A stretch of DNA of 64,000 nt from a bacterium (GTDB lineage Bacteria; Patescibacteriota; Microgenomatia; Daviesbacterales; UBA10151), in assembly GCA_021786315.1 (NCBI GenBank), contig JAJYNN010000002.1, positions 545,494 through 609,493 of the forward strand. Direction: 5' to 3'. Each line of letters begins with the position of its first letter. The first letter of the stretch is position 1. Made by a program: the position numbers and the translations under genes. The notes beneath the pieces are model-generated. The model had not been told where the DNA came from. It was given only the letters and a program-made list of their open reading frames with translations, and made no database searches. Of this stretch, positions 15,092 to 53,473 are shown in pieces.

Positions 15092-16069
15092 ATGGAAGAT
15101 AACCTGCCCAAATCTGATAATCAATTTTGGTATGAAAATCAGCCCAACCATAATGAACCTCTTCAACCACAACCAGAACCTGCTCCTGCTGGTCCTCCAA
15201 TTCAAATAACAGAGAATAAGAAATACTCAGAGAAAAATGACCCGCCGATGGTAGATGTTAAAGTGACCAATCCTGTCTCCTACTTTAAAAAGTGGGTTAA
15301 ACATCTTTTAGGTAATGAGGGTATTGATATCGGTTTCAAATTTAAAGTTAAACCCTTAACCGCCATAGCTTTAATGGTTGCCTTGGCTGTTTCTTTTGGC
15401 ACTGGTTATGGAACTGGATTAAACGCCGCTGCCGGAGTTTTATTCCCCAACTCCTCCCCGCTTTTACACAGAACCGTGATGTACCAAGGAAATTTGCAAA
15501 AGGCAGGTGACAAATATCTTCTAATCCTTCCCAATTCAGATACTTATACTTTAAAACCCAAATCCAATACTAATATTAACTTTCAAAATTTAACTGATGG
15601 CCCGGTTTTAGTTAAAGGAAACTTAACCAGGGAAGCGTTTGTGATTGAACCCTCAGAAGTTATATCTTTAGGTGGTTCAGCCCCTGAGCCGCAAGCTACC
15701 CTTACCCCAACTAACTCTTCCATCTCTAATCCCACCGATTTCCCTAGTCTTTACCCCAGCCTGACTTGGGAAGTAACTCAAGAAAAAGTTTTAATATTTA
15801 CTTCGGGAAAAAGAAAGATCGAACAAAATGGTGTCTACCTGGAATCTGCTCAGGTACCTACTCTTCCTCAAGATTTCTTGAATTACTATACCAATGAGCT
15901 ACAAACCAAAGGTTTTGAGGAAACCTTAAATTCCAAAGATCCGGAAGGAACCACAATCACCTTTGCCAAAAATGACCTCTACTTAACCTTCGGCATCAAA
16001 AACATCTTTAAAGGCTCAGGCGACACCCGCCAACTCTCCGGCTACAAAGCCTTCATAGAACATAACTGA
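15092..16069 (+). CDS. Pro-rich membrane-anchored hypothetical protein (paralog A of 26482..27273)
   Basis: The core DPPMVDVKVTNPVSYFKKWVKHLLGNEGIDIGFKFKVKPLTAIALMVALAVSFGTGY is shared with the island-borne paralog. Confidence 0.5.
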   Translation: MEDNLPKSDNQFWYENQPNHNEPLQPQPEPAPAGPPIQITENKKYSEKNDPPMVDVKVTNPVSYFKKWVKHLLGNEGIDIGFKFKVKPLTAIALMVALAVSFGTGYGTGLNAAAGVLFPNSSPLLHRTVMYQGNLQKAGDKYLLILPNSDTYTLKPKSNTNINFQNLTDGPVLVKGNLTREAFVIEPSEVISLGGSAPEPQATLTPTNSSISNPTDFPSLYPSLTWEVTQEKVLIFTSGKRKIEQNGVYLESAQVPTLPQDFLNYYTNELQTKGFEETLNSKDPEGTTITFAKNDLYLTFGIKNIFKGSGDTRQLSGYKAFIEHN

Positions 16070-16810: not shown

Positions 16811-18406
16811 CTAAATATAGATGGCGCGTTCGTCTAGAGGCCTAGGACACTGGGTTTTCATCCCAGGAATCGCGGGTTCGAATCCCGCACGCGCTACTGA
16901 GAGGGATTGTAAGAAGGTTGTGTTTGATTTCCTCTGCGCGGGTGGGGGCGCGCAGAGCTCTCTAAAGCCCTGATTGTAGTCTACGGAAAGTTGCCGATTC
17001 AATAAAAAGAAGTTCGAGCCGACAGTTTTTGCTCCTATGCTTAAATCGGAGCATGTATTTTTTGCGCGCGCGATTTTTGCGCACGAAAGTGCGCTTCCGA
17101 CCCACTCTCTCATAGGTTCGAGCCAACTCGAACCGTTTTGTCTTATTCTCTCCAAATCTTCCTGAATTTTAAGTTTTTGTTCAAAAACTTCGTTCTTTTT
17201 ACTTTTATAAGTTTCACCATCTATTACCTGATCCAAGAAACTATCAAGTAACAAATTGAGCTTTTTATCTAAAGTTTCCAGCTCGTTTTTTAGGGAGATT
17301 ATATTTTCCTCAATGAACTTTTGCTCCTCAACTTCATCCCGATCCATCCATTTATACCAATCATGAGCCCAACTTTCGGGAATAGACACATCAGAAACAA
17401 TCTTTCTTACTTGTAGTTCTAAATCTTCTTGAGAAATATATTTTTGAGAACAAGGTTTAATTTTCTTAGTGCATCTATAGTAAATAAAGGTTTGTTTATT
17501 ACCATTTTTATATTTTTTAGTATGAGTTTCGGTAGTAATAGCCGCACCGCACTCTCCGCACCTCATCAAACCTCTAAAAGCAAAATCATGGCCATTTTTC
17601 CTTGGTCTTTCAATTCTTTTTATTTCTTGTTGAGCAGAATCAAATAGTTTTTTAGAGATAAATGTTTTATGAGAGCCCTGATAATACTCACCGTTATACT
17701 TTAAAATCCCAATATAAAATCTGTTGGATAGCATTTTCTTTATTTGGTTTATATGTAAAGGTTTTTTGTTTATGGTTGTACTTACCCAACCTCGAGTTAA
17801 CCCTAATTTGTGAAGATAGAGGGATATTTCCTTGTAAGATTTACCTCCCTCGGCAAAAAGTTCAAAGGCCTTTTTAATTGCTAAAGAAGTTTCCGGATCT
17901 ACTTGAACAGTTTTTGTATTCGAGTCGTTTTTATACCCGAAAGGTGCTTTCATTGGCCAAACTCCATTGCGAAGTTTTTGCCTTAGCCCACGTTTTACAT
18001 TTTCTGATAAGTTGTCGACATAATATTTGGATTGGCCAAAGGCAATATTTAGCATAAATTTTCCCTGTGGAGTATTTTCAAACCAGAAGGTAGGGAATTT
18101 AAGGTTTAGAAGATTACCGGTATCCAAGAGGTAAATTATTTGGCCGCCGTCAATTGAGTTACGAGCTAATCTATCGGGATGCCAGGCAATAATACCTTGT
18201 GCCTGTCCTTTCTCGATCTTTTTTATTACCTCTGCGAATTTTTCTCTTCCGGGGAGTTTAGCGGTTTTTGACTCTGTTATAAATTCTTTGATTTCTAAGT
18301 TCTCTCTTTTGGCAAATTCTTGAAGCTCAGCAATTTGAGCCTCAATAGAAAGGACTTGTCTATCCTTCTCATCTGTTGATTTTCGGCAGTATGCTATATA
18401 TTTCAT
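16811..18406 (-). CDS. large serine recombinase (resolvase/invertase catalytic domain + recombinase domain + Zn-ribbon + coiled coil)
   Basis: N-terminal YCRKSTDEKDRQVLSIEAQ (Y-x-R-x-S motif), GIIAWHPDRLARN, a Cys4 ribbon CGECG...YYRC, and a coiled-coil tail. The frame has no stop until 16811, so it reads through IR1-left into the tRNA-Glu antisense. The true 3' end is uncertain. Confidence 0.8.
   Translation of the reverse strand: MKYIAYCRKSTDEKDRQVLSIEAQIAELQEFAKRENLEIKEFITESKTAKLPGREKFAEVIKKIEKGQAQGIIAWHPDRLARNSIDGGQIIYLLDTGNLLNLKFPTFWFENTPQGKFMLNIAFGQSKYYVDNLSENVKRGLRQKLRNGVWPMKAPFGYKNDSNTKTVQVDPETSLAIKKAFELFAEGGKSYKEISLYLHKLGLTRGWVSTTINKKPLHINQIKKMLSNRFYIGILKYNGEYYQGSHKTFISKKLFDSAQQEIKRIERPRKNGHDFAFRGLMRCGECGAAITTETHTKKYKNGNKQTFIYYRCTKKIKPCSQKYISQEDLELQVRKIVSDVSIPESWAHDWYKWMDRDEVEEQKFIEENIISLKNELETLDKKLNLLLDSFLDQVIDGETYKSKKNEVFEQKLKIQEDLERIRQNGSSWLEPMREWVGSALSCAKIARAKNTCSDLSIGAKTVGSNFFLLNRQLSVDYNQGFRELCAPPPAQRKSNTTFLQSLSVARAGFEPAIPGMKTQCPRPLDERAIYI
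16823..16896 (+). tRNA. tRNA-Glu (anticodon UUC)
   Basis: GGCGCGTTCGTCTAGAGGCCTAGGACACTGGGTTTTCATCCCAGGAATCGCGGGTTCGAATCCCGCACGCGCTA. D-arm TTCGTCTAGAGGCC is typical of tRNA-Glu. Anticodon loop TTTTCAT. Confidence 0.9.
16894..16996. repeat. IR1-left: 103-bp perfect inverted repeat (partner 18490..18592)
   Basis: Exact reverse-complement match to 18490-18592, verified base by base. Overlaps the last 3 nt of tRNA-Glu. Confidence 0.9.
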
Positions 18407-18489: not shown

Positions 18490-18592
18490 CGGCAACTTTC
18501 CGTAGACTACAATCAGGGCTTTAGAGAGCTCTGCGCGCCCCCACCCGCGCAGAGGAAATCAAACACAACCTTCTTACAATCCCTCTCAGTAG
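18490..18592. repeat. IR1-right: 103-bp perfect inverted repeat (partner 16894..16996)
   Basis: Exact reverse complement of 16894-16996. Lies between the recombinase start (18406) and IR2. Confidence 0.9.
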
Positions 18593-18703
18593 TACGGTAT
18601 CAACAAATTCGAACCTATTTCAAATCGACGTATGCATCGGTCGGTCGGTAGAAGCCCCTCCGCTTCGCGTCGGGGCCTTCTGATCTTTAAGCTCGGCCTT
18701 CGG
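18589..18703. repeat. IR2-left: 115-bp perfect inverted repeat (partner 28385..28499)
   Basis: Exact reverse complement of 28385-28499. Abuts IR1-right, sharing 4 nt. Confidence 0.9.
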
Positions 18704-18764: not shown

Positions 18765-21700
18765 TTATGCACTAAGTTGTATGTATGGATAATCCTTGTA
18801 AAGATTCTCTGCCTGTTCATATACCTTATCAACCATCAAGTCCACCTCTGCAAATGAAATATTATTCCTTAATAAGACTAACCTCACATCTGCTCTTACT
18901 CGAGCTTTAATAATTTCATGGTTAGTCCAGTCAATTGCTATATCTGCCCTTATAGCATGTATAATTTCTTTCACAATCCTCTTTAGATTACTATCTTTTA
19001 AAGACTTCTTACCCAGTGATAAGGCATCATAAAAAGCTAATTCCTCTACTGTTAATCCAATCTCCTTGCCAACTTCACTTGCTTGTCTAATTTCTCTAGC
19101 CAGTTCTAATAATTTATCTATCACTTTAGATGAATTGATAATATTGTTTTCATATTCCTCAATGATTTCTTCTAATTTATTAAGGAGAGTGTCATACCTT
19201 AAAATATTTGTTCTTCTGCGCATTTTTAATTCATCTTTTAACAGTTTGTTTATTGCCTCAATTGTTAGATTCTTAAATCTAGATTTCTTAATATCTTCCA
19301 GGAATCTTTCATCCAATATAGAAATATCAGGTTCCTCTCTCCCATTTTGAGAAAATATATCTATTACACCCTCAGCGACTATATTTTTTGAGATTAGATC
19401 TTTAATCGCGGTTTCTGTTTCATTACTTATATAGATTGGGTCTACAGTAGTGTTTTTAATGATAATTTTTCTAACTCCTTCGAAAAATTCTAGTTCTTCC
19501 CGAATATTATTTGCCGCTTTATGTGGCATTACTAAAGAGAAAAATTTATATAGTCTGCTGGAAAGGCTTAAGTATTGGTCTTTTTGTGCTGTATTTATAC
19601 CACCAGATACCGGATCCGTTAAAATTCCATTAACCGCTCTTGCAAAAAGTGACGCCAGTTCGCTACTAGGTAACTTATGCCAGTTGGTATATTCAATCCC
19701 TTCAAAAAATTTCTTTACTTTTTTATAGTGTTCTAACATTTTCGCGACCATCTCCTCTATTGGAACCATGGCTTGTTTTTGAACATCCGAAGTGTAGATT
19801 GCTAAAGCTTTCTTTAAGTTATCAGCAACACCAATATAATCAACAATTAACCCACCCTCTTTATCTTTATAGCGTCTGTTAACCCTAGCAATTGCCTGCA
19901 TCAAAGTATGACCTTCAAGAGGTTTATCTAAATAGAGTGTATTTAAATGAGGAACATCAAAGCCTGTAAGCCACATATCACAAACGATAACAATTTTTAA
20001 AGGATCTTCAGGATTTTTGAATCTTTTCTCAATTTCCCTATTATCTAACTCTTCTTGAATTTGTCCCTGAAAATCCTTACTGCCAGAAACAACAACAGCA
20101 ATTTCCGGTGCACCCTTCATTGTTTTGATAATTTCGTACATTCTTGCAGCAATTCTTCTACTCATAGTCACAAGTAATGCCTTTCCTTTATATCTTCTAT
20201 TTATAAAATGAAAAACGACATCATAAGCCACTTTTTGTAATCGATCCTCCGCTCCAATAGCGCTCTCCAAAGTAGCCCATTTATTCCTTAAGACGTCTTT
20301 TGTATCTATTGGATGCTCAGCTAATAATTGATCAAAGTCCAAATCAATGTATTTGTTGAAAACATGTAGAGGGGTTAATCGTCCTTCATAGTAGATTGGC
20401 ACCGTTGTTCCGTCCTCAACTGCTTTATCAATTGGATATTCACTAAATTCCTCACCAAAGACCATTTGTGTATTTCTGTTTTGCAAAGAGATTGGAGTAC
20501 CAGTAATACCCATAAAAGAGGCATTTGGTAAAACATCTCTAACATTGCCTGCAAATGTGGCATATTGCGATCTGTGCGCTTCGTCTGCAATCACGATAAT
20601 ATTTTCTCTTTCCGATAAAGGTTCTCTCGTATCAAACTTCTGAATAGTAGTAAATAGAACCTCGGATCCAGCTCCTTTTAGCTGATTAATTAATCCAGCG
20701 ATACTGCCTGCTTGTTTTACAGTGGGGTAACCTGTTCGCAAGAAAGTTTTATACAGCTGCTGATCCAAATCATTACGGTCTGTTAAAAACAGTATTGTCG
20801 GGCTTTTTAGTTGCTCCGCTCTTTTAGCTTTATTAACATAGAAAACCATAGATAAAGATTTTCCGCTTCCTTGTGTATGCCAAAAAACTCCAATCTTTTT
20901 ATTACTAACGATAGCTTGTAAAGTTCTTCCAATCGCTTTGTTCACGCCAAAATATTGATGATACATCGCCATCTTCTTGGTAAATTTAGAAGCATCTTTC
21001 TCAGCGTCTGCCTCAAAGACAATAAAGTTCTCAATTAGATCAAGTAAATGATTTTTATTAAACATTCCCTTTATCAAAAGTTCTAATTCTGACTTCTCTA
21101 GATTTTTTTCGTTCTCACTCTCTATTCCTTTCCAAACATTAAAAAAGTCGAAGGAAGACGAAATAGTTCCATGCTTCGCCTTCATTAGATCGCTGATAAC
21201 AAGTACCTGGTTATACAAAAATATCTTTGGAATTTCTTTTTTATACAAGTCGTGAATTTGTGAGTATGCGTCGGCAATTGTCACCTTTCCATCAACGGGA
21301 TTTTTTACTTCAAATAATCCCACGGGAATTCCGTTAATAAAAACGACCACGTCTGGAATTCTTATAGAAGATCCTTGAACAGAAAATTGGTTAACTACTA
21401 AAAACTCGTTGTTATCCGGATTTCTATAATCAATAATATTTACGATCTCACCTTTAAGATCATTATTTTTGTCTTTGACTTCTACTCTTATCCCTTCCGT
21501 CAACCACTTAAAAACTTCTTTGTTTCCTAACTCTAAATCCTGATGATCATATTTAGTGATCTTATCTACAACCTCGTTAACTTTTTCATCTGGAATATCT
21601 GGATTTATTCTTTTTAAAGATCTTTTTAGTCGCGTCTCTAGAACAACCTCTCTATAATCACTACGTTCTTGAAAAGTTCCGCCAGGGGAGATATCAGGAC

Positions 21701-21782
21701 CATATGCATGTTCATAACCCAATTCATTGAGCCATTCTAATACTGGTTTTTCTGCTAAATTATTTTCATTAAGTTTTGACAT
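18765..21782 (-). CDS. hsdR: type I restriction enzyme R subunit HsdR
   Basis: HTQGSGKSLSMVFYV (Walker A), IVIADEAHRSQY (DEAH box), helicase C motifs. 1005 aa. Confidence 0.95.
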   Translation of the reverse strand: MSKLNENNLAEKPVLEWLNELGYEHAYGPDISPGGTFQERSDYREVVLETRLKRSLKRINPDIPDEKVNEVVDKITKYDHQDLELGNKEVFKWLTEGIRVEVKDKNNDLKGEIVNIIDYRNPDNNEFLVVNQFSVQGSSIRIPDVVVFINGIPVGLFEVKNPVDGKVTIADAYSQIHDLYKKEIPKIFLYNQVLVISDLMKAKHGTISSSFDFFNVWKGIESENEKNLEKSELELLIKGMFNKNHLLDLIENFIVFEADAEKDASKFTKKMAMYHQYFGVNKAIGRTLQAIVSNKKIGVFWHTQGSGKSLSMVFYVNKAKRAEQLKSPTILFLTDRNDLDQQLYKTFLRTGYPTVKQAGSIAGLINQLKGAGSEVLFTTIQKFDTREPLSERENIIVIADEAHRSQYATFAGNVRDVLPNASFMGITGTPISLQNRNTQMVFGEEFSEYPIDKAVEDGTTVPIYYEGRLTPLHVFNKYIDLDFDQLLAEHPIDTKDVLRNKWATLESAIGAEDRLQKVAYDVVFHFINRRYKGKALLVTMSRRIAARMYEIIKTMKGAPEIAVVVSGSKDFQGQIQEELDNREIEKRFKNPEDPLKIVIVCDMWLTGFDVPHLNTLYLDKPLEGHTLMQAIARVNRRYKDKEGGLIVDYIGVADNLKKALAIYTSDVQKQAMVPIEEMVAKMLEHYKKVKKFFEGIEYTNWHKLPSSELASLFARAVNGILTDPVSGGINTAQKDQYLSLSSRLYKFFSLVMPHKAANNIREELEFFEGVRKIIIKNTTVDPIYISNETETAIKDLISKNIVAEGVIDIFSQNGREEPDISILDERFLEDIKKSRFKNLTIEAINKLLKDELKMRRRTNILRYDTLLNKLEEIIEEYENNIINSSKVIDKLLELAREIRQASEVGKEIGLTVEELAFYDALSLGKKSLKDSNLKRIVKEIIHAIRADIAIDWTNHEIIKARVRADVRLVLLRNNISFAEVDLMVDKVYEQAENLYKDYPYIQLSA

Positions 21783-21783
21783 A

Positions 21784-22602
21784 TTAGTGATCTTCCAATT
21801 GTAATTTTTGTTGAGGTTCTTTATATGACTCTATATCAACTACTTTAATTTTGGGAACCTCATAATCACTATTTCTTATTACTATCCCTCTCAACTGAAC
21901 TTTTTCCATTTCAAGATATTCGTGAAATTTCGTCGTACTCTTTTCTTTATCCAAAGGAGAAACATTTAAGGTGTACCCTTTATAAATAAATCCTAAATCA
22001 TTTAATTTTTTATTTATCCGTGTAATTTCTCCATCTATAACAACTTCCTCTCCGTTTCTAAGTTCCGGTAATATGGGATCTTCTTGTTTATCTACATAAA
22101 ATTGATACTTATTATCGCAAGTAATCTTGAATGACTTATCTCCTATAACGATTTCCGCATGTTCGTTGTATTCGCTAACTGGCCTCGCCATTTTTTCTGC
22201 ACCTTTTCTGAAATCATAACTTCTACATAATTCAAAGACCTTCTTGTCGGAAATGGCGTCTAACAATTCTTTTGTGGGATTCTTCAAGCTATTCGATCCA
22301 AATCTATCGATTATTACAAAGGCTGATACTATTATTGTGGCTACATAACTTATTCGCTCTACGGTTTGCCAGGGGTGCTTCTGAACATATATAAGCTTTG
22401 TTCTAACCGAACCATTTTCAATTGGAAGAACGTATATATTATCGTAAGCCAGCATTCCTATTTTTGCTGCTTCTTTTAAACATGTCTCCAAGCCAATAAT
22501 TGCTTCTCCTAACTCTTTAGCTGGCATTGCACTTTTTTCCGCAGAATACACTAAGAATATTTCCGATGAAGAGGGATCGACTTGGAATAGTTGTTGATTC
22601 AT
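21784..22602 (-). CDS. hypothetical protein embedded between hsdS and hsdR (no recognisable domain)
   Basis: 272-aa ORF, translationally coupled on both sides (1-nt gaps) inside the hsdM-hsdS-X-hsdR operon. Confidence 0.5.
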   Translation of the reverse strand: MNQQLFQVDPSSSEIFLVYSAEKSAMPAKELGEAIIGLETCLKEAAKIGMLAYDNIYVLPIENGSVRTKLIYVQKHPWQTVERISYVATIIVSAFVIIDRFGSNSLKNPTKELLDAISDKKVFELCRSYDFRKGAEKMARPVSEYNEHAEIVIGDKSFKITCDNKYQFYVDKQEDPILPELRNGEEVVIDGEITRINKKLNDLGFIYKGYTLNVSPLDKEKSTTKFHEYLEMEKVQLRGIVIRNSDYEVPKIKVVDIESYKEPQQKLQLEDH

Positions 22603-23745
22603 CTAAATTGTTATTTCTCCTTTCATTAATTTTGGTAAAAGCAAATCACGCAAAGCAGTTAATTTTTGATTTTCCAGCTTTAAACTGATCATAGTTCTGT
22701 AAGTAACATCAAAAATATTTATATTTTTATTGTCAGATATAAAAATATTTTGTTCTTTTAAATGCTCTTTTTTAATATGTCCCATGGTCGTAGCTTTGGC
22801 ACCCGCCTGTTGTTGAAAAAATTTTAGCTTCGACTTAAGAAGAAAATATATAAACCCTTTGGAAAAATCACTTGTTGGAACTACATTAAATATATGCTGG
22901 TTTAATATCGCCTTATCTTTATCCCAGATATACAAATCTACTGTACCAGACCAAGAGAATAGCAAGTCACCGTTTTGGATGTAATATTTATCGTCCACCT
23001 TTTTGTCTATCCATTCAGTATTATCTGAAACTCCTCTGTTTAAGTCAGCAATTTTTATTAGCGGAAGTCCTTTCTTCATTCTGTTTGTAATTTTTCCAAA
23101 AGCCCCGCCATTAATATAATTCGCTATATCCAACAATGAATATTTAGTACCTTCATTAGAGGAGAACCATTTTTTAAAAAATGTCTGGGCCATTTCTTCT
23201 AAAGTTTTTGAAATTTTATTGTTCACTTCAATCTTTTCATCTAATGCAGCTAAAATTCTGGAAATTTTTTTTTGTATAGACAATGGAGGGGTTGGAACTA
23301 AAACATTCTCGAAAGTACCAAGATTAATATTGTCTTGTGCGCTACCGATGGCATAACTTTGAATATTTCTCTTAAGATATTGCAGAGAATATAGAATAAA
23401 ATCTGGATCGCTTTTTTCTTCGTCTGCTAAAAAACCGATTACACTATCAGGGAAACACGCCGGAAAAGTTAGTTTTCCTAAATCTGCAATATTTGCTGCG
23501 ATCGTTATACAAATTGTATTAACGGGCCACATCCTACTTTGTTTTAAACCATTTTCACTGTATGTTTGTGAATATGAAGTTATTCGACCACCTGAGGCTT
23601 TCACATCACCTGTTTGTATAAATGGGTACGGACCACCATACAATATCCTTGCGTCTCTTGGCCGATGTCGAGATCTTCCTCTATTAAGTTCACCTAACTG
23701 AGTTAATTTTTTTAATTGCCAATTATCTGGAATCTGATTTTGCAT
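22603..23745 (-). CDS. hsdS: type I restriction-modification specificity subunit HsdS (two target-recognition domains)
   Basis: 380 aa. Duplicated TRD/conserved-helix architecture. Positioned between hsdM and hsdR. Confidence 0.85.
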   Translation of the reverse strand: MQNQIPDNWQLKKLTQLGELNRGRSRHRPRDARILYGGPYPFIQTGDVKASGGRITSYSQTYSENGLKQSRMWPVNTICITIAANIADLGKLTFPACFPDSVIGFLADEEKSDPDFILYSLQYLKRNIQSYAIGSAQDNINLGTFENVLVPTPPLSIQKKISRILAALDEKIEVNNKISKTLEEMAQTFFKKWFSSNEGTKYSLLDIANYINGGAFGKITNRMKKGLPLIKIADLNRGVSDNTEWIDKKVDDKYYIQNGDLLFSWSGTVDLYIWDKDKAILNQHIFNVVPTSDFSKGFIYFLLKSKLKFFQQQAGAKATTMGHIKKEHLKEQNIFISDNKNINIFDVTYRTMISLKLENQKLTALRDLLLPKLMKGEITI

Positions 23746-23746
23746 A

Positions 23747-25537
23747 TTAATAATTAATCTTTTTTAGATTTTCTAAAATTTCCTTTTCTAATTTTTCAGA
23801 TTTTGTGAAATATTGTTTTAGTTCTGATTCTAATTCTTTCATCTTTTCTTCGAACGGAACTCCATCCTCCTCTTCATCCTCCACTCCAACAAAACGACCC
23901 GGTGTTAAAACATAACCACTTTTTACAATTTCCTCTTTTGTTGTTGCCTTACAAAATCCGGAAACATCTTTATATTCTCCATTTTCGCTCCTCCAAGCCC
24001 TCACAGTATTAGCAATTAGCTGAACTTGTTCTTCATTAAAAGTCACTTGTTTTCGAGAGATTTGAGTAAAATATTTTGAGTCTCGAGCATCAATGAAAAG
24101 AGTTTCTCCTTTTCTGTTTCTGAATCTGCCGGATTCTTTATTTTTTGTGACAAACCATAACGACACTGGAAGGGAAACATTAAAAAATAGTTTTGGAGGA
24201 CAAGCAATTATTACATCAATCAGATCATCCTCAATCATTCTTTTTCTGATTTCACCTTCCTTGCCGGAAACAGCCAACGCTCCATTAGCCATTACAAATC
24301 CAGCTATTCCATTTGGGGTTAAGTGGTTTATAAAATGTTGAATCCACATAAAGTTAGCATTTCCTTTCGGAGGAGTGCCATAAACTAATCTCGGATCTTT
24401 TTCAGAAAGACGATCTGAATCCCATTCTGCATTAAATGGAGGATTAGCCAGGATAAAATCGACTTTAAGTTCTCTGAACTTGTCATCATAGTAAGAATTA
24501 CCAAATTGGATATTTCCAAAAACTCCACGGATAGCAAGATTCATCTTGCAGAGCTTTAAAGTTGTTTGATTACTTTCTTGGCCGAATATGGATATTTTTG
24601 TCGGATCTTTATGGTGCTCTTGCAAGAATTTGCTGGACTGGACAAACATTCCACCAGACCCACAACATGGGTCTAAAACCCTACTGTTTTCATAAGGTTC
24701 AAGAATTTCAACTAAAAGTTTTACTAGCGAACGAGGTGTATAAAATTCTCCTCCTCTTTTACCCTCAGCATCAGCAAACTGTCCCAAGAAATATTCATAG
24801 ACTCTACCAAGTAAATCTTTCTCTCTATCCTCATCATCGTTGAAATCTATCCGGGAAAAAATATTAATGAGTTCTCCTAAGATTTGACTTTCAAGTGGAA
24901 CGCGAACATAACTCTTTGGCAGAACTCCTGTCAGCTGTTCAGGGTTTTCATTTTCTATAGCTTCCATAGCATCGTCGATATACTTCGCTAAATCTGATAA
25001 GGCAGCTTTGCTTCTCAAATATTCCCATCTGGCGATTTCTGGAATATAAAAGATCCCCTCCTTCTTATACATGTCTTTATCTTCCAAAATCATTTCTCGA
25101 GCAGCGGGGTTAGGGATATAGTATTGCTTGTTTTTGGAATCACTCATCCATTTTTGAAGTTTTTCTCTTCTTTGGTAAAAAGAATCAGAAATATACTTAA
25201 GGAAAATAAGACCTAAAACGACATTCTTGTAATCAGAAGAATCAATATTACCCCTAAGTCTATCTGCAGCTGCCCATAGCTCTTTTTCAAAATGAATATC
25301 TGTTTTAGGTTTACTAGCTAAATCCCGAGCTTCCTTTGCTGTAGCTTTTTGAGTTTGGATAATTCTATCTTTAAAATCCTGAGGAAGAGTATTGTACTTT
25401 AGAAGATATTTTTTACCCTCTGTTCGTGTTTCGATTTCTCCAGCATTAATTTTACCTTGGAGTTGCTTTAAAACAGCCTGACGAGATATACCTAATATCC
25501 TGGCGATATCACTAATTGAGATAAAATTTTCATCCAT
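23747..25537 (-). CDS. hsdM: type I restriction-modification N6-adenine methyltransferase HsdM with extra N-terminal HTH-like domain
   Basis: HsdM_N motif ELWAAADRLRGNIDSSDYKNVVLGLIFLKYISD, SAM motif LDPCCGSGGM, catalytic NPPF (FILANPPFN). The first ~85 aa (ISISDIARILGISRQAVLKQL) are an additional HTH. Confidence 0.95.
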   Translation of the reverse strand: MDENFISISDIARILGISRQAVLKQLQGKINAGEIETRTEGKKYLLKYNTLPQDFKDRIIQTQKATAKEARDLASKPKTDIHFEKELWAAADRLRGNIDSSDYKNVVLGLIFLKYISDSFYQRREKLQKWMSDSKNKQYYIPNPAAREMILEDKDMYKKEGIFYIPEIARWEYLRSKAALSDLAKYIDDAMEAIENENPEQLTGVLPKSYVRVPLESQILGELINIFSRIDFNDDEDREKDLLGRVYEYFLGQFADAEGKRGGEFYTPRSLVKLLVEILEPYENSRVLDPCCGSGGMFVQSSKFLQEHHKDPTKISIFGQESNQTTLKLCKMNLAIRGVFGNIQFGNSYYDDKFRELKVDFILANPPFNAEWDSDRLSEKDPRLVYGTPPKGNANFMWIQHFINHLTPNGIAGFVMANGALAVSGKEGEIRKRMIEDDLIDVIIACPPKLFFNVSLPVSLWFVTKNKESGRFRNRKGETLFIDARDSKYFTQISRKQVTFNEEQVQLIANTVRAWRSENGEYKDVSGFCKATTKEEIVKSGYVLTPGRFVGVEDEEEDGVPFEEKMKELESELKQYFTKSEKLEKEILENLKKINY

Positions 25538-25627
25538 GCCGGAAGCAGTATAGTACTAAAAAATAATTCTGTCAAGTTGTCATCGTGACAACCTTAAATT
25601 AGAAATAATTGCGATACAAGAGTTTCT

Positions 25628-26485
25628 TCAGTAACACTTTTTAGTGCTACTACCCTCTAAATAATAAGACTCTTTTTTAGGATCAAACCGATATGTATTC
25701 TTTTCTTCGGTATCACTTCCATGATCTCCACAAGACCAACCTTGCTCAACCTTCCCTTCAGAATTTGGCAGAAAGTTATCGACCCAGTAGAAAGTTTGAT
25801 CTTTGTTGATTATTGGATAGACAACAGCTTTATTATTGGCCTTACTATATCCCAAGACTAAATGTTCAGTATGTCCACAAGCCAAAGTAAAACCATTTAG
25901 GAGAAACTCATAATAATACCCATCGCCGTTTAAATCCTGAAAATTCATCAAGTCCACATCTGTATACTCGAGTTGTTCTACAGAAGGTTCGCTACCTTCC
26001 AATTTCAAATAAGCCGGATCAGCGTTCATTCTGATATTTTGATAAGCTAAACGGATATTATTGCTTGGAGGTAATGGTTTCCCTGTACTTAAATCTACAT
26101 TAGAGCCCGAACCCGGAATCGAAACATCATTAATAAGTTTGTTGTTTTGTATCAGGGCTAAATGATAGTTACCTTCAATCGCTCTTCCCTCTATGCCGGA
26201 AGCACAAGAAGTATAAGCAGACCATCTGCGGGATGGTTCTAATAATTCGTCTGTTTTAGAGTTTAATACATAGAGCACCAAGTACGATTCAGGAGAAAGA
26301 TTGGGAATTTTCTTATATTCTCGGAGTAATGCTTCTTTGGGAATTAAGTTCTTGATAGAACTGTCGCTAATATTTGTTTTATCGGGTTTATTTATGTTTT
26401 TTGTATCAATTTTTAAAGAGGGAAAATAGAAGAAACCAACAATCAACACAAATGGAATGATAAATAATAACTTTTTTCTGCTCAT
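25628..26485 (-). CDS. secreted/membrane-anchored Cys-containing hypothetical protein
   Basis: N-terminal TM LLFIIPFVLIVGFFYF. No recognisable domain. Confidence 0.4.
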   Translation of the reverse strand: MSRKKLLFIIPFVLIVGFFYFPSLKIDTKNINKPDKTNISDSSIKNLIPKEALLREYKKIPNLSPESYLVLYVLNSKTDELLEPSRRWSAYTSCASGIEGRAIEGNYHLALIQNNKLINDVSIPGSGSNVDLSTGKPLPPSNNIRLAYQNIRMNADPAYLKLEGSEPSVEQLEYTDVDLMNFQDLNGDGYYYEFLLNGFTLACGHTEHLVLGYSKANNKAVVYPIINKDQTFYWVDNFLPNSEGKVEQGWSCGDHGSDTEEKNTYRFDPKKESYYLEGSSTKKCY

Positions 26486-27273
26486 TTATTACTATCAAAA
26501 ATATTTATTTCAGATACATTAATAACATTGGCTTCTCTAGTTAGGTTTCCTTTAACCATTACTTGTTTGTTTATAGAATTGTTGATGGTATTGAGGGCTG
26601 TTTGGGATTTTGGGAGTAGCTTCCATAAAGTTGTATCGGGTAAAGATAAATAGTATTGTCCGTCTTGAGTTTTCTGAATAGTTCCTTGATAGACAATAGC
26701 TCGATGAAGGATAGGGCTTGAGTTAGGGAAAAGAATTCCGGCAGCCGAATTTAGACCAGAGGTATAACCAGTTCCGAAAGAAGCTGCGAGGGCAATCATA
26801 ATAGCTACTGCAGTCATAGGCTTAATTCTAAACTTAAATCCAATATCTATGCCCTCGTTTCCCAAAAGGTGTTTAATCCATTTTTTAAAGTAAGTTACGG
26901 GATTAGTAACTTTCACATCCACCATTGGAGGATCATTATTTTCTGAGTATTTATCATTTTGGGTTACTTGGATTGGAGCAGGGTAAGAGGAATCAGGGTG
27001 ATCAGGGATATTAGGGGAAATTGGAGGATTGGGATTATCAGGGACAGTATAATCACTTTTAATAAAGTGTCCTTGGGCATCTCGCTTTTGGTGTTTTGCT
27101 AATTCACTTTGAACAGGGTCTATTAAGTCAGGAGAAGGATTTGAAGGAATAGGAGGAATGGGGGTATCAGGGAAATTGGGGGGATTCGGGGAAGGAGTTT
27201 GAGCTAATGGTTCGGGTTGAGTTGGTTGTTGAGGGGTAAAGGAATTATTAGGATCAGGCAGTTTGTCATCCAT
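26482..27273 (-). CDS. Pro-rich membrane-anchored hypothetical protein (paralog B of 15092..16069)
   Basis: Shares the DPPMVDVKVTNPVTYFKKWIKHLLGNEGIDIGFKFRIKPMTAVAIMIALAASFGTGY core with the chromosomal paralog. Confidence 0.5.
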   Translation of the reverse strand: MDDKLPDPNNSFTPQQPTQPEPLAQTPSPNPPNFPDTPIPPIPSNPSPDLIDPVQSELAKHQKRDAQGHFIKSDYTVPDNPNPPISPNIPDHPDSSYPAPIQVTQNDKYSENNDPPMVDVKVTNPVTYFKKWIKHLLGNEGIDIGFKFRIKPMTAVAIMIALAASFGTGYTSGLNSAAGILFPNSSPILHRAIVYQGTIQKTQDGQYYLSLPDTTLWKLLPKSQTALNTINNSINKQVMVKGNLTREANVINVSEINIFDSNK

Positions 27274-27339
27274 AAATCCAGTATATCTACTAGATTAGAA
27301 AGGTGCAACTGCAGCGGAAATATACAAAAAGTTATCCAA

Positions 27340-28330
27340 TATATTGTGTATTGACTCGGCTTTCCATACAAGGTGTAAAATTTAATTACTCTCTGCAGTA
27401 GCGGAGGTAGAAGGGAGGGCCATGAATTTGACCCAACTTTTGTACTCCGTGAGTATCTTTGGTAATTGAAACTAGCAAACGGACAAGCAAGGAGGATCCA
27501 AATAACCTTGCTTACTTAATTGTTCAGGGAAGATTACTGACAACACTCTAGCGGAGGCTCACCTTTGTCTTACCTAAAGGTTAAGTGTTGTCTACCGGAA
27601 AATTGGGAGAGAATAACCAATCAAAGCAAACTGAGACGTCGGTTTGGGGAGATATAGGTATTAGGTACTTTTGTAGGTGAGAGGGCCACTCAGTATTCTC
27701 ACTGGGTGGCCTTTTCTTTATTCTCCTTGCAAACTCTTTTCTCTTCTGTGGCGGTTCCGCCGCCCCCGCCCCTTTGGGATAATAACCGTTCAGGAGGGCA
27801 GCACCTTAGAAGAAATCTTTTTGGAATTAGTAGTAAGTAAAATGGGTGCTGCCCGACAATAGCGAGGGCCGAGAAAGCCAAGTCATATTTTAGAAGAACC
27901 GGCCCGAGCCCTCGGAATTAGTGCGAGAAAGTTTCTCGAGAAACTTTCGAGCGGCATGGATGCAAGTAGGGCTAAAAATTGCGGCGGGGGCGATTGCGGA
28001 CAAACCCCCGCAACGGCAGGAGGTATTAGAAAGAAGAAAAGGGTAGGCGAAAAGTACCGAAGGTAACCTTACCCAACGAACTTTTCGCCGAGTTAGATAC
28101 TACCAATACTAGTTCGTAAGGCAACAATATAGGCGAGGCGCCCCCTAGGGCGACCTCTCGCCCAAAAGCGGGGGTGCCGCTACTACTAATTTGGGTGGGT
28201 GGGTTAGTTCAGGATACAAGATTTACTCTTCTTACCCGTTACCGTAGCGGTAACGGTATCCGTAACGGTCCGTTACGGTGATTAGCTTGTCAAAAACCGC
28301 TAAACTCCCCATTCTTAAATATCTTAATAA
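27340..28330 (+). other. ~1 kb GC-rich non-coding region with dense predicted secondary structure (candidate structured ncRNA and/or iteron/ori-like region)
   Basis: No ORF of 62 aa or longer on either strand. GC-rich helices in an AT-rich genome. Several helices only work with G-U pairs on the + strand. Contains a 22-bp perfect palindrome and four ~11-nt CCGTTACGG-type repeats. Confidence 0.3.
27684..27720 (+). terminator. rho-independent terminator-like hairpin inside the non-coding region
   Basis: GGCCACTCAGT-attctc-ACTGGGTGGCC followed by TTTTCTTTA. Confidence 0.5.
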
Positions 28331-28384
28331 TTCTTTAAAAATCGCGCGCTTTTCTGTCTCTTAGCAAAAAATACCAGAGCGAGG

Positions 28385-28499
28385 CCGAAGGCCGAGCTTA
28401 AAGATCAGAAGGCCCCGACGCGAAGCGGAGGGGCTTCTACCGACCGACCGATGCATACGTCGATTTGAAATAGGTTCGAATTTGTTGATACCGTACTAC
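28385..28499. repeat. IR2-right: 115-bp perfect inverted repeat (partner 18589..18703)
   Basis: Exact reverse complement of 18589-18703. Confidence 0.9.
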
Positions 28500-28510
28500 A
28501 AAAGAAAAAG

Positions 28511-28540
28511 TCCTCCCTTCGGGGAGGCTTTTTGTTTTTT
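28511..28540. terminator. bidirectional rho-independent terminator
   Basis: CCTCCC-TTCG-GGGAGG hairpin with a T-run on the + strand (CTTTTTGTTTTTT) and an A-run before it. Insulates the island from the sigma/anti-sigma operon. Confidence 0.65.
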
Positions 28541-28639
28541 AACTGTGATTAGGCAAGAATCTGCGCATCTCGCAGAGCTAAGCAGGTTCGATCAGGCAAA
28601 GCCTGACAACATCTTCGAGCAAAGCGAGAAGTAGTGTTA

Positions 28640-28657
28640 ATCCCCGCACGCGCTACT
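28640..28657 (+). repeat. direct repeat of tRNA-Glu 3' end (putative attR core)
   Basis: atccccgcacgcgctact versus tRNA 16882-16898 atcccgcacgcgctact (one extra C). Preceded by the motif acaacatcttcgagcaaagcgagaagtagtgtta. Confidence 0.7.
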
Positions 28658-29219
28658 TGTTACGATTAAAATGGTGAGTTTTTAGACCCTTAACCTCACC
28701 GTTTCCTTTTTGAGTTTCAGAAGCAGCCCGCCGCAATTTTTCCGAAGAAGCAGGATTCTTCCGGGCTTCATCTTCAAACTTTCTTCCCTGAATATTGATC
28801 TCCTTTTTAACTTCCTCTTTCCGGGCAGAACTGCTTGCCATATTTTCACTATCCTTTACCGCTTCCTGATAATGCTCAATCGCATCATCCAATTTCTTTG
28901 GGTCATTACTTACTTTCAAAACATCATCGCCCCTTCTTTCTATAATTAAGGAGGGGTTATTGGTGGCTTTGGCCACTATATTATCAGCCAATACTTTAAT
29001 CGGATAGAACGTGTCCCCGGGTTCAGCTGCCTGAACTACCCCTCCAAACCCGCCTAGAATTATTAATGCCCCAATCAAACTCAAGACTATCTTTGAATAA
29101 GGAACAGGCGAATTATAAGCATTCTGATCACCCAATTTGGACTCCAACTTTTTCCACTCTTTATCAGGATTATTATCTGAAATATTAATATAGCTTTTTC
29201 TTAATTCCTCTAATTTCAT
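28653..29219 (-). CDS. putative anti-sigma factor / membrane protein downstream of ECF sigma
   Basis: Single TM IVLSLIGALIILGGFGGVV. Start overlaps the sigma gene stop by 4 nt. Confidence 0.4.
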   Translation of the reverse strand: MKLEELRKSYINISDNNPDKEWKKLESKLGDQNAYNSPVPYSKIVLSLIGALIILGGFGGVVQAAEPGDTFYPIKVLADNIVAKATNNPSLIIERRGDDVLKVSNDPKKLDDAIEHYQEAVKDSENMASSSARKEEVKKEINIQGRKFEDEARKNPASSEKLRRAASETQKGNGEVKGLKTHHFNRNK

Positions 29220-53385: not shown

Positions 53386-53473
53386 CGAGCAAAGCGAGAA
53401 GACAAAGTGAGAACAACATCTTCGAGCAGAGCGAGAAGTAGTGTTATTCTCACCATCGGCTCTCACAATTTTT

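What the first reader, a model, noticed from the sequence alone, without database searches (positions are those of the whole stretch)
27340..28330. ~1 kb GC-rich non-coding block, dense in stem-loops, inside the island
In an AT-rich genome this stretch has no ORF of 62 aa or longer on either strand, yet many GC-rich helices.

Examples:
- GGGCAGCACC...GGGTGCTGCCC
- GGGCCG...CGGCCC, nested with CGAGGGC...GCCCTCG
- GCGGGGG...CCCCCGC
- GCGCCCCC...GGGGGTGC, which requires a G-U pair on the + strand only and so points to a + strand RNA

Other features:
- a sigma70-like promoter (TTGACT...TGtTAAAAT, 27351-27381) with a terminator hairpin at 27684-27720, which would give a ~300-nt transcript
- a perfect 22-bp palindrome GAAAGTTTCTCGAGAAACTTTC (27927-27948)
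- four ~11-nt CCGTTACGG-type repeats (28236-28280) followed by an AT-rich stretch, which look like iterons

Candidates are a large structured ncRNA, a replication or transfer origin, or regulatory leader RNA for the R-M operon.
Basis: seen in the sequence. Interest (0 to 1): 0.7.

Follow-up and report, generated by a model that had tools for sequence, protein, structure and literature searches.

The report
Conserved folded module of recombinase element
About two thirds of this GC-rich gene-free block is a copy of a previously undescribed, roughly 640-base folded nucleic-acid module (probably a non-coding RNA) that travels with a widespread family of tRNA-targeting serine-recombinase mobile elements in the tiny "candidate phyla radiation" bacteria.

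Summary
Window 27274-28652 has no ORF over 61 aa, is GC-rich and folds better than shuffles on both strands.

Only 27748-28384 is conserved. About 45 homologous copies turned up in Patescibacteria genomes and metagenomes. None matches Rfam. The similarity shifts reading frame between loci, so it is not protein-coding.

A roughly 435-nt domain (27748-28183) is closed by a long-range helix, P1. It contains hairpins whose pairing is kept by compensatory changes: 94% of cells paired against 37-51% in slid controls. An invariant GGGTGGGTGGG tract and an end motif follow.

The module always lies inside the tRNA-distal end of an element built from:
- a large serine recombinase whose gene runs antisense across a tRNA;
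- two pairs of near-perfect roughly 100-bp inverted repeats (X, Y) that carry the att half-sites.

Cargo varies between loci; here it is type I R-M. So this is an element part, not an R-M leader. The "iterons" and the promoter/terminator unit are not conserved.

RNA versus single-stranded DNA is unresolved, and the strand rests only on a conserved purine-rich + strand. Function is inferred.

The parts
27748..28183 (+). Core folded domain of the conserved module (about 435 nt, 52.5% GC), closed by helix P1.
   Evidence: nhmmer and CM hits in 13 GTDB and about 30 metagenome loci. Alignments A1 and A2. Covariation. Purine-rich + strand in 34 of 34 copies.
27748..27754 (+). P1 5' strand GUGGCGG. 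It pairs with 28177-28183.
   Evidence: Seven arm variants that stay complementary: GGAAGCGG/CCGCUUCC, GUUGGCGG/CCGCCAAC, GGUGGCGG/CCGCCACC, GGAGCGG/CCGCUCC and others.
28177..28183 (+). P1 3' strand CCGCUAC.
27761..27992 (+). P2: CGCCCCCGCC (27761-70) with GGCGGGGGCG (27983-92).
   Evidence: 93% of cells paired. The helix is almost invariant, so it is uninformative. Terminal pair C-G 23 / U-G 9 (I15, 50, 98).
27796..27854 (+). Hairpin Pa: GGGCAGCACC / GGUGCUGCCC with a 39-nt A/U-rich loop.
   Evidence: It is the longest stem at the same anchored place in 21 of 34 copies, with about 10 different arm sequences. Also, I17.
27866..27905 (+). Hairpin Pb: GGGCCGA / CCGGCCC.
   Evidence: 95.5% paired; 6 of 7 pairs show a change on both sides.
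27927..27948 (+). The stem varies; the UCGA/CUCGAG tip is mostly conserved.
   Evidence: Stems GTCCCGCC/GGCGGGAC (L011), GTTCCGTC/GACGGAAC (L113) and GTCCCGA/TCGGGAC (L136), read from A1 and A3. Also, I10.
28137..28154 (+). Hairpin Pe with the conserved loop CCUA (CCCCUAGG).
   Evidence: 97.5% paired; 6 of 7 pairs show a change on both sides, for example GC16/UA10/CG7.
28193..28203 (+). Invariant G-tract GGGTGGGTGGG, 10 nt 3' of P1.
   Evidence: The G-runs are invariant in all 34 copies; only the two intervening T positions vary, in three copies. It forms part of a motif that hits only this module in the GTDB loci. Position.
28236..28278 (+). This is the lineage-specific filling of a variable hairpin slot.
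   Evidence: Homologues carry one unrelated GC-rich hairpin and/or a TGGTATAAT-type promoter here.
28339..28374 (+). End motif AAATCGCGCGC ... GCAAAAAATAC abutting repeat Y.
   Evidence: Conserved in most copies. It is kept even in minimal elements that lack the core.
28385..28499 (+). Inverted repeat Y, distal copy. It ends with a tRNA T-loop mimic (GGTTCGAAT), 15 nt and the core CTAC (28496-99). This is the attR junction and the true right end of the island.
   Evidence: 100% identical to 18703-18589. Junction logic. Logan unitigs break exactly here.
18589..18703 (-). Inverted repeat Y, proximal copy. It abuts X (shared GTAG, 18589-92), giving an intact attP-like Y|X junction upstream of the recombinase gene.
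18490..18592 (-). Inverted repeat X, copy upstream of the recombinase gene.
   Evidence: 100% identical to 16996-16894. An X pair flanks the recombinase gene in about 60 of 80 related loci.
16894..16996 (+). Inverted repeat X, copy inside the 3' end of the recombinase ORF, joined to the tRNA-Glu 3' end (attL).
16811..18406 (-). Large serine recombinase gene (531 aa). Its ORF runs antisense across tRNA-Glu.
   Evidence: Pfam Resolvase + Recombinase + Zn_ribbon_recom. PHROG integrase. More than 580 relatives.
16823..16897 (+). tRNA-Glu(UUC), the integration target.
27274..27747 (.). Non-conserved spacer ('block A').
   Evidence: No homologue in any fetched locus apart from the two Logan unitigs that are the same sequence. 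Scan results.
18765..27273 (-). Variable cargo of this copy: hsdR, a 272-aa ORF, hsdS, hsdM, a 285-aa orphan and a 263-aa Pro-rich membrane protein.

Best explanation
Window 27748-28384 is one copy of a conserved non-coding module. It belongs to the backbone of a family of integrative elements of Patescibacteria driven by a large serine recombinase (LSR).

Layout, 5' to 3' on the window + strand:
1. A roughly 435-nt domain closed by a long-range helix (P1), with internal helices P2, Pa, Pb, Pc and Pe and A/G-rich joining strands.
2. An invariant GGGTGGGTGGG tract.
3. A variable hairpin slot.
4. An end motif (AAATCGCGCGC ... GCAAAAAATAC).
5. The 115-bp inverted repeat Y, which carries one att half-site.

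My reading is that the module works as a folded single strand of + polarity, most likely a non-coding RNA made by the element. I think it serves the element itself rather than its cargo. The likeliest setting is the life of the excised circle: priming or maintaining its replication, or controlling transcription that runs across the att junction towards the recombinase module.

Shown:
- conservation and the absence of coding;
- compensatory base-pair changes;
- strict linkage and fixed position within the element;
- the strand-asymmetric composition.

Inferred:
- that the folded molecule is RNA;
- its exact ends;
- its function.
For: - Homology at nucleotide level. BLASTN finds 68-70% identity over about 460 nt in L017, L036 and L013. 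The nhmmer profile hits 13 GTDB loci and about 30 metagenome contigs. The CM scores the window at 186.7 bits, E about 1e-53.
- Not coding. Open frames over the homologues lack start codons and look like junk, and the matching frame shifts between loci. The small window ORFs have no family match.
- Structure. For P1, Pb and Pe, 94.3% of 699 cells are paired against 37-51% when partners are slid. 116 cells have changes on both sides against 14-20. The covariation score is 0.469 against 0.05-0.08, and 0 of 500 shuffles reach it.
- P1 joins segments about 430 nt apart with seven different complementary arm pairs.
- Pa has about 10 arm variants at one anchored position.
- Linkage. In every locus with enough sequence, the module lies just inside the distal Y repeat and in the same orientation relative to the recombinase. 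Only the recombinase and this module are shared; cargo differs.
- Strand asymmetry. All 34 cores are purine-rich on the + strand, with A>T and G>C in 34 of 34. Unpaired conserved stretches are A/G-rich, as is usual for structured RNAs (established knowledge). C-GAA-G tips outnumber C-TTC-G tips 16 to 3.
- No Rfam family matches the window or nine homologous loci.
- Contig L137 carries module-Y-core-X-recombinase 3' end. This is the junction expected in an excised circle.
Against: - No transcription data are available.
- No convincing promoter lies 5' of P1 in the window. A strong + strand terminator (27679-27716) sits just upstream.
- Wobble pairs are almost absent, and no more frequent than A.C: 11 against 12 in P1/Pb/Pe. 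Only 5 G.T and 3 A.C occur in 86 distinct local hairpins. This is unusual for an RNA family. It fits DNA hairpins, or stems made perfect by template-switch mutation.
- Recurrent GCGAAGC tips are the classic very stable DNA mini-hairpin (my own knowledge).
- Minimal elements with perfect repeats (L018, L020, L043) lack the core domain, so it is not needed for recombination itself.
- The pairing scheme of the invariant G-run and C-run core could not be settled. RNAalifold gave different answers on A1 and A2.
Confidence: 0.55

Rival explanations
1. The module works as folded single-stranded DNA of the + strand. It would be a single-strand origin or single-strand promoter. It would act when the element enters a cell as ssDNA (Patescibacteria rely on natural competence), or during some single-strand replication stage. 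It would start complementary-strand synthesis or early expression of the - strand genes that begin next to P1.
For: - Stems are almost purely Watson-Crick, with G.T as rare as A.C.
- Helices are 84% G-C in a 40% GC genome.
- C-GAA-G / GCGAAGC hairpin tips recur at non-homologous places.
- In eight or more loci, the first - strand gene starts only 34-100 nt from P1, which leaves little room for an ordinary promoter.
- The module lies at one end of the element, like leading-region ssDNA promoters and the sso of plasmids (established knowledge).
- In ssDNA, the inverted Y+X copies could anneal to rebuild a duplex attP (inference).
Against: - No Rep, relaxase or other single-strand-generating gene is conserved in the elements.
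- Serine recombinases act on duplex DNA.
- Known sso, ssi and Frpo elements are 100-330 nt and are simple hairpins. They are not a 435-nt multi-helix domain closed by a long-range helix with A/G-rich joiners (my own knowledge).
- ORF starts used for the gap argument are the longest possible and may be wrong.
Confidence: 0.25
2. The module is transcribed on the window - strand, as a long structured 5' leader of the element's operon (cargo genes, then recombinase).
For: - In the window, every element gene is on the - strand, downstream of the module.
- In many loci, a - strand gene starts 34-100 nt after P1.
- Folding and covariation are equally compatible with either strand.
Against: - All 34 copies are purine-rich on the + strand. 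A - strand RNA would therefore have U/C-rich single-stranded regions and a CCCACCCACCC tract.
- In about 12 loci, the neighbouring gene is on the + strand and ends at P1, so there is nothing to lead into.
- The window's cargo operon has its own - strand promoter-like site at 27366-27338, separated from the module by a 470-nt non-conserved spacer.
- No canonical - strand promoter was seen by eye in the end motif.
Confidence: 0.1
3. It is a duplex-DNA site array: an iteron-type origin, recombination enhancer or operator cluster bound by proteins at the palindromes.
For: - There are many palindromes, plus a conserved GCGCGC and G-tract also present in repeat X.
- The end motif is kept even in minimal elements.
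- An operator-like palindrome, ATCGGCCAA-N11-TTGGCCGAT, occurs in 19 related loci.
Against: - Protein-binding palindromes conserve sequence. Here the stems change sequence but keep complementarity, and P1 pairs segments 430 nt apart.
- The 'iterons' are absent from homologues.
- The operator-like palindrome is absent from the window.
- The composition is strand-asymmetric.
Confidence: 0.05
4. It is the remains of a decayed protein-coding gene, or a chance cluster of genome-wide GC-rich palindromic repeats.
For: - Stop-free frames of about 200 codons cover the homologues in L017 and L013.
- GC-rich hairpins also occur in X, Y and near other tRNAs.
Against: - Those frames have no start codon and a junk-like composition. 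The window matches them in three different frames, with stops.
- No protein family matches.
- The window holds only one copy.
- The order of motifs is conserved over about 640 nt in about 45 loci.
Confidence: 0.03

Closest known systems
Large orphan structured ncRNAs carried by mobile elements (ROOL, GOLLD, HEARO/IS605 omega-RNA, OLE, raiA)
   Same: - Several hundred nucleotides, GC-rich relative to the genome.
- A multi-helix domain with covariation.
- Located in or near mobile DNA and tRNA genes.
- No coding capacity.
   Different: - No sequence or structure match to any of these Rfam models.
- Tied to one recombinase family and to one fixed position next to an att repeat.
- Almost no G.U pairs.
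ColE1 RNA II / mitochondrial CSBII primer RNAs (a structured transcript, then a G-rich tract that forms a persistent RNA-DNA hybrid at the origin)
   Same: - A folded domain of about 450-550 nt, followed within about 10 nt by an invariant G-tract.
- No element-encoded Rep protein.
- RNase HII is encoded in the window.
   Different: - No promoter at the expected distance, no antisense RNA I, and no mapped origin.
- The resemblance comes from memory and from the layout only. It was not tested.
Single-strand origins (ssoA/ssoU), G4/phiX-type ssi signals and the F-plasmid Frpo ssDNA promoter
   Same: - Orientation-specific folded single strand.
- Watson-Crick-perfect GC-rich hairpins.
- GCGAAGC-type tips.
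- Position at an end of the mobile DNA, next to the first genes.
   Different: - Much larger, and branched.
- No Rep or relaxase in the element.
- The CS-6/RSB motifs were not searched for systematically (one TAGCGG in the window's own variable hairpin was noticed by eye only).
- No known single-strand stage for serine-recombinase elements.
IS110/IS1111 bridge (seek) RNAs
   Same: A non-coding structured RNA encoded next to the end of a recombinase-bearing element.
   Different: - Bridge RNAs are about 150-200 nt, lie 5' of the recombinase gene, and carry loops complementary to target and donor.
- Here, own-locus matches to the att arms (6-10 nt) are no longer than cross-locus controls.
- The recombinase here is a classical large serine recombinase. 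Its att arms explain the targeting (T-loop mimic plus a shared core).
Serine-integrase elements (phage integrases, SCCmec Ccr, Tn4451 TnpX, XisF) and the yeast 2-micron plasmid
   Same: - Resolvase + Recombinase + Zn-ribbon protein.
- Site-specific insertion with a short shared core.
- The predicted circle has two long inverted repeats that divide it into two arcs, as in the 2-micron plasmid.
   Different: - The integrated form keeps an extra, inverted attP-like Y|X junction.
- The recombinase ORF reads antisense through the tRNA.
- Many different tRNAs are targeted, through a T-loop mimic.
- The elements carry the folded module described here.

Membership tests
Any Rfam 15 family (including ROOL, GOLLD, HEARO, OLE, raiA, group I/II introns, RNase P, tmRNA, 6S) | A covariance-model score at or near the family's gathering threshold. 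| tested here: not met
   The window at gathering threshold gives only six tRNAs. Region 27000-29000 at E<=10 gives only terminator-like weak hits below half the gathering score. Nine homologous loci at E<=1 give nothing. ARAGORN finds no tmRNA.
Structured non-coding RNA (generic) | Conserved secondary structure maintained by compensatory substitutions. | tested here: met
   94.3% paired, 116 double-change cells, 0 of 500 shuffles reach the score, slid controls 37-51%. Also.
Structured non-coding RNA (generic) | It is transcribed: a promoter, a terminator, or RNA evidence. | not testable with these tools
   No expression data are available. No consistent promoter lies 5' of P1. Outward + strand promoters lie 3' of the core in many loci.
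Structured non-coding RNA (generic) | Strand-specific G.U tolerance (G.U far more frequent than A.C). | tested here: not met
   G.U 11 against A.C 12 in P1/Pb/Pe. 5 against 3 in 86 local hairpins.
IS110-type bridge/guide RNA | Loops complementary to the target and donor att sequences, changing with the target. | tested here: not met
   The longest own-locus matches to attB, Z or attP arms are 6-10 nt, the same as cross-locus controls.
Iteron-type replication origin | Three or more direct repeats of about 17-22 bp at regular spacing, conserved with the replicon, plus an AT-rich stretch and a Rep gene. | tested here: not met
   The repeats are 9-mers in alternating orientation that form two hairpins. 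They are absent from homologues. No Rep gene is shared.
Single-strand origin / ssDNA promoter | A folded ssDNA recognised by RNA polymerase or primase, orientation-specific, in an element that has a single-strand stage. | tested here: inconclusive
   Watson-Crick-only stems and GAA tips fit. No Rep or relaxase is present. Activity cannot be tested here.
ColE1 RNA II-like primer | A promoter about 500 nt upstream of the origin, a persistent hybrid at a G-rich/C-rich site, and an antisense regulator. | not tested
   Only the layout (folded domain plus G-tract) resembles it.
Decayed protein-coding gene | Similarity in one reading frame to a protein family. | tested here: not met
Large-serine-recombinase integrative element (context of the module) | A Resolvase + Recombinase + Zn-ribbon protein, att junctions sharing a short core, and a site-specific target. 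| tested here: met
   Pfam and PHROG matches. Junctions B|X, Y|X and Y|Z share CTAC. The same design occurs at 15 or more different tRNAs.

The most novel reading that the evidence does not exclude
The module is an element-encoded structured RNA (or folded single strand) that the recombinase element needs for its own propagation. One possibility is a host-factor-only primer or origin that lets the excised, 2-micron-like circle replicate. Another is an RNA partner that controls the direction or expression of a large serine recombinase. Either would be the first nucleic-acid cofactor tied to this recombinase class, and it would define a new kind of mobile element that dominates tRNA loci in Patescibacteria.
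Probability: 0.25. Interest if true: 0.9.

Novelty: categorically new. Interest (0 to 1): 0.8.

Why it matters
Patescibacteria have tiny genomes, and little is known of how they exchange genes.

This finding exposes a widespread mobile-element family, with more than 580 recombinase relatives in species-representative genomes. These elements insert at the 3' end of many different tRNA genes and carry defence cargo. One large branch of the family always carries the same roughly 640-nt folded module.

If the module is an RNA, it adds a new large ncRNA class with a clear genetic partner. That makes its function testable, unlike most orphan large ncRNAs. If it is a single-strand DNA device, it points to an unrecognised single-strand stage in the transfer of serine-recombinase elements.

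The att design (a T-loop mimic plus a short matching core) and the compact recombinases may also interest genome engineers.

Tried and rejected
- Rfam at gathering and permissive thresholds, on the window and on nine homologous loci: nothing.
- tRNA/tmRNA scan: nothing in the block.
- BLASTN of the gap against phage and plasmid collections: no match.
- Family scans of the neighbouring unknown proteins and the block's small ORFs (Pfam, PHROGs, PADLOC, NCBIfam): nothing useful.
- The 285-aa neighbour is an orphan with a single 40% homologue, so it was useless as an anchor.
- Protein-anchored metagenome scan with the 263-aa neighbour: nothing.
- Viral contigs:
  - recombinase relatives only at contig ends, without the module;
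  - no relative of the 285-aa protein;
  - the motif scan gave one 64% GC false positive.
- Decayed-gene hypothesis: rejected by frame shifting.
- Guide/bridge RNA hypothesis: rejected, with no target- or donor-specific complementarity.
- Iteron origin: rejected, not conserved.
- Strand assignment from G.U against A.C: inconclusive in three versions of the test.
- RNAalifold on the full alignments: unstable for the invariant G-run/C-run core. MAFFT columns misalign Pa and Pc, so these two rest on per-sequence hairpin searches and on reading the alignments.
- CM of the 5' half: no further copies among distant recombinase loci.
- Literature searches: no prior description found.
Full report
**1. 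What is in the window**

The ORF-free gap is 27274-28652. It lies between a 263-aa ORF (26482-27273, -) and a 188-aa ORF (28653-29219, -).

GC content:
- the finding: 46.5%
- 27748-28204: 52.5%
- the whole window: 40.3%
- the island's genes: 34.9%

All the quoted inverted repeats exist. Perfect GC-rich hairpins are concentrated here and in two other non-coding pieces of the island.

Both halves fold better than every dinucleotide shuffle. They do so on both strands (z -3.1 to -5.1), so folding energy gives no strand information.

Rfam finds nothing here at gathering or at permissive thresholds. ARAGORN finds no tmRNA.

**2. Context: the island is a serine-recombinase element with an unusual repeat design**

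The left end of the island has two features:
- tRNA-Glu (16823-16897, +);
- a 531-aa large serine recombinase (LSR) ORF (16811-18406, -) that runs antisense across the tRNA.

A self-comparison shows two perfect inverted repeats:
- X: 16894-16996 and 18592-18490;
- Y: 28385-28499 and 18703-18589.

X and Y overlap by the four bases CTAC/GTAG at 18589-92.

Three junctions share this core:
- tRNA 3' end | X, which is attL;
- Y | X on the - strand, directly upstream of the recombinase gene, which is attP-like;
- Y | flank at 28496-99, which is attR.

The block therefore lies just inside the right end of the element. The simplest reading (inference) is a circular element that carries two inverted copies of its attP region, one of which recombined with the tRNA.

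Independent Logan unitigs from two samples end exactly inside Y at both ends, as expected for a true repeat.

**3. The element family**

The recombinase has more than 580 relatives in the GTDB species genomes. The best 80 are nearly all Patescibacteria; Daviesbacteria are closest, at 67-73% identity.

Among these 80 loci:
- about 60 have an X-type inverted pair around the recombinase gene;
- about 65 have a tRNA gene antisense at +1430 to +1660 of the recombinase start, covering at least 15 tRNA species;
- about 30 of those with enough upstream sequence have a Y-type pair abutting X.

Repeat copies are 96-100% identical within a locus, although they differ between loci.

The Y arm always ends with a tRNA T-loop mimic (GGTTCGAAT-like). 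About 13-23 nt follow, then a core of 4-10 nt identical to the 3' end of the target tRNA. This accounts for the wide choice of tRNAs without any guide RNA.

**4. Only part of the block is conserved**

BLASTN of window pieces against these loci finds no homologue of 27274-27740.

By contrast, 27741-28384 matches L017, L036, L013 and L011 at 68-70% over about 460 nt. Its most conserved piece, about 28118-28206, matches eight more loci.

Further searches extended the set:
- A profile search finds the module in 13 GTDB loci.
- A motif from it, GGGGT-N0-1-GCCGC-N8-22-GGGYGGGWGGG, hits only the module in those loci.
- Scanning metagenomes with that motif, then confirming with the profile, adds about 30 copies.

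Wherever the contig is long enough, the module lies immediately inside the distal Y repeat. It has the same orientation relative to the recombinase, 1.5-8 kb upstream of it.

**5. It is not a gene**

Stop-free frames cover the homologues in L017 and L013. They lack start codons and have junk-like composition. The window matches them in three different frames, with stops.

**6. It is structured**

Alignments of 9 and 34 copies (A1 and A2) show a fixed order of invariant motifs separated by hairpins whose arms differ but stay complementary.

*Helix P1* pairs 27748-54 with 28177-83, segments about 430 nt apart. Its arm variants are:
- GUGGCGG/CCGCUAC
- GGAAGCGG/CCGCUUCC
- GGAGCGG/CCGCUCC
- GUUGGCGG/CCGCCAAC (up to 10 bp)
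- GGUGGCGG/CCGCCACC
- AGGCGG/CCGCCU
- AUGGCGG/CCGCCAU

*Counts for P1, Pb and Pe together*:

| Measure | This structure | Partners slid by 1-3 columns |
|---|---|---|
| Cells paired | 94.3% of 699 | 37-51% |
| Cells changed on both sides | 116 | 14-20 |
| Covariation score | 0.469 | 0.05-0.08 |

None of 500 column shuffles reaches the observed values.

*Other helices:*
- Pa (27796-805/27845-54) is the longest stem at the same anchored place in 21 of 34 copies, with about 10 different arm sequences.
Its stems are replaced wholesale (GTCCCGCC/GGCGGGAC, GTTCCGTC/GACGGAAC, GTCCCGA/TCGGGAC) around a mostly conserved UCGA tip.
- P2 (27761-70/27983-92) is 93% paired but nearly invariant, so it is uninformative.

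- GCGCCCCC/GGGGGTGC conflicts with Pe and P1.
- GCGGGGG/CCCCCGC is only 53% paired in the window's register.

How the invariant G-runs and C-runs pair, possibly as a pseudoknot, could not be settled.

*The 3' part.* An invariant GGGTGGGTGGG (28193-203) lies 3' of P1. A variable slot follows. In the window it holds the two CCGTTACGG palindromes. In other loci it holds one unrelated GC-rich hairpin and/or a canonical + strand promoter (TGGTATAAT, or TTTACn-N17-TATAAT) that points outward through Y. After the slot comes the end motif AAATCGCGCGC ... GCAAAAAATAC (28339-74).

A covariance model of the 5' half scores the window at 186.7 bits. It finds the same GTDB loci as the profile search (one fewer) and no others.

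**7. Which strand, and RNA or DNA?**

For the + strand:
- All 34 cores are purine-rich on the window + strand: A>T in 34 of 34 with mean skew +0.24, and G>C in 34 of 34. This holds although the surrounding genes are on the other strand.
- C-GAA-G hairpin tips outnumber C-TTC-G tips 16 to 3.

Since the helices are compositionally symmetric, the + strand carries A/G-rich unpaired regions, as structured RNAs usually do (established knowledge).

Against a simple RNA reading:
- Wobble pairs are nearly absent and no commoner than A.C: 11 against 12, and 5 against 3 in 86 local hairpins.
- Helices are 84% G-C.
- GCGAAGC tips recur. This is the classic stable DNA mini-hairpin (my own knowledge).
- I found no consistent promoter 5' of P1. 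In the window, a strong + strand terminator lies just upstream.

I therefore rank a + strand RNA first (about 0.55), with a + strand single-stranded-DNA device as a serious rival (about 0.25). Template-switch mutation could also produce perfect stems and one-step 'compensatory' changes (established knowledge), so the covariation numbers may overstate selection on individual pairs. P1 and the conserved architecture are still hard to explain without folding.

**8. What it does (inference)**

The module is not tied to the R-M genes. Cargo differs among loci: methylases, M23-peptidase-like proteins, very large surface proteins and small ORFs. Only the recombinase and the module are shared.

It is not a guide RNA. 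Matches to the att arms are no better than cross-locus controls.

It is not required for recombination as such. Minimal elements with perfect repeats and only 584-861 nt between the Y copies lack the core domain. They keep the end motif and an outward promoter.

Contig L137 carries module-Y-core-X-recombinase 3' end. This is the junction expected when attL and attR recombine to give a circle.

Three features point to a role in the excised form of the element:
- the fixed position beside the att repeat;
- the G-tract just after the folded domain;
- the absence of any element-encoded replication protein.

That role could be priming or maintaining replication of the circle, or controlling transcription that crosses the att junction towards the recombinase module. 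This step is not shown.

**9. Comparison with what is known**

No Rfam family matches. Five literature searches found no description of a structured RNA or DNA module linked to large serine recombinases, or of these double-inverted-repeat, tRNA-targeting elements in Patescibacteria.

The nearest analogues by kind are:
- orphan large ncRNAs of mobile elements (ROOL, GOLLD, HEARO);
- primer RNAs (ColE1 RNA II, mitochondrial CSBII);
- single-strand origins and promoters.

The module meets none of their testable defining features, so I class it as new.

**10. Verdict**

About two thirds of the block is a real, conserved, folded module of a mobile element. The other third is local spacer holding the cargo promoter and an unconserved terminator unit. 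Its nature (RNA or ssDNA) and its function remain to be shown.

Noticed in passing
window 16811-18406 (-) and 16823-16897 (+): The recombinase ORF reads antisense through the whole tRNA-Glu gene. Its last roughly 60 codons are encoded by repeat X plus the tRNA. The same overlap (tRNA antisense at +1430 to +1660 of the recombinase start) occurs in about 65 of 80 related loci. The C-terminus of the protein would therefore differ between the integrated and excised states.
   Followed up: partly
window 16894-16996 / 18490-18592 and 18589-18703 / 28385-28499: Two abutting pairs of perfect inverted repeats (103 and 115 bp) bound the recombinase gene and the cargo. The integrated element thus holds attL, an inverted intact attP-like junction, and attR. 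This fits a circle with two inverted attP copies (2-micron-plasmid-like), or two invertible segments.
   Followed up: partly
window 28470-28499; L011, L017, L022, L033, L035, L036, L071 junctions: The Y arm of every element ends with a tRNA T-loop mimic (GGTTCGAAT-like). Roughly 13-23 nt follow (15 in the window), then a 4-10-nt core identical to the 3' end of the target tRNA. This is a simple way for one recombinase family to use many tRNA genes.
   Followed up: yes
L137 700-1200 (- strand): A 1.7-kb metagenome contig joins module-Y-core(CGACAGA)-X-recombinase 3' end. This is the junction expected for the excised circular form, or for a double inversion.
   Followed up: partly
window 28606-28657 and 53387-53463: A 34-nt motif (CAACATCTTCGAGCARAGCGAGAAGTAGTGTTA) is followed by a partial copy of the 3' end of the neighbouring tRNA. 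This occurs downstream of both tRNA-Glu (19-nt copy, 28639-57) and tRNA-Thr (about 16-nt copy, 53448-63). It looks like the footprint of another small tRNA-targeting insertion.
   Followed up: no
window 26482-27273 (-) and 15092-16069 (+): The Pro-rich membrane-anchored 263-aa cargo protein has a paralogue (76% nucleotide identity over 259 nt, plus similar upstream sequence) just outside the island, in inverted orientation.
   Followed up: no
window 27274-27747: This non-conserved spacer holds a - strand promoter-like site (27366-27338) for the cargo operon and a very strong + strand terminator (27679-27716). It also holds a 15-codon ORF (27423-27470) behind a strong GGAGG/GGGAGGG ribosome-binding site. 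It may be a local small RNA or leader peptide unit.
   Followed up: no
L011 9747-9771, L036 9686-9710, L087 1345-1367, L193 8757-8781 and 15 other loci: An operator-like palindrome, ATCGGCCAA-N11-TTGGCCGAT, lies either just 5' of P1 or just before an outward TGGTATTAT promoter in related elements. It is absent from the window (0 matches).
   Followed up: partly
L018 9188-9770, L020 9104-9769, L043 8912-9771: Minimal elements have only 584-861 nt between the Y repeats. They carry no folded core, but they have a TGGTATAAT promoter, a 75-aa ORF with a strong RBS (L018, L020), and the hairpin + AAAATCGCGC..GAAAAAATA end motif.
   Followed up: partly
window 25628-26485 (-): The 285-aa secreted or membrane protein in the cargo is an orphan. 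It has a single homologue (40% identity) among 5.8 billion clustered proteins.
   Followed up: partly
L034 6648-7103, L185 3727-4226, L170 2186-2920: Some copies of the module lie outside the nearest recombinase element, either on the far side of its tRNA or fused to a recombinase C-terminal remnant. This suggests tandem or decayed elements at tRNA clusters.
   Followed up: no
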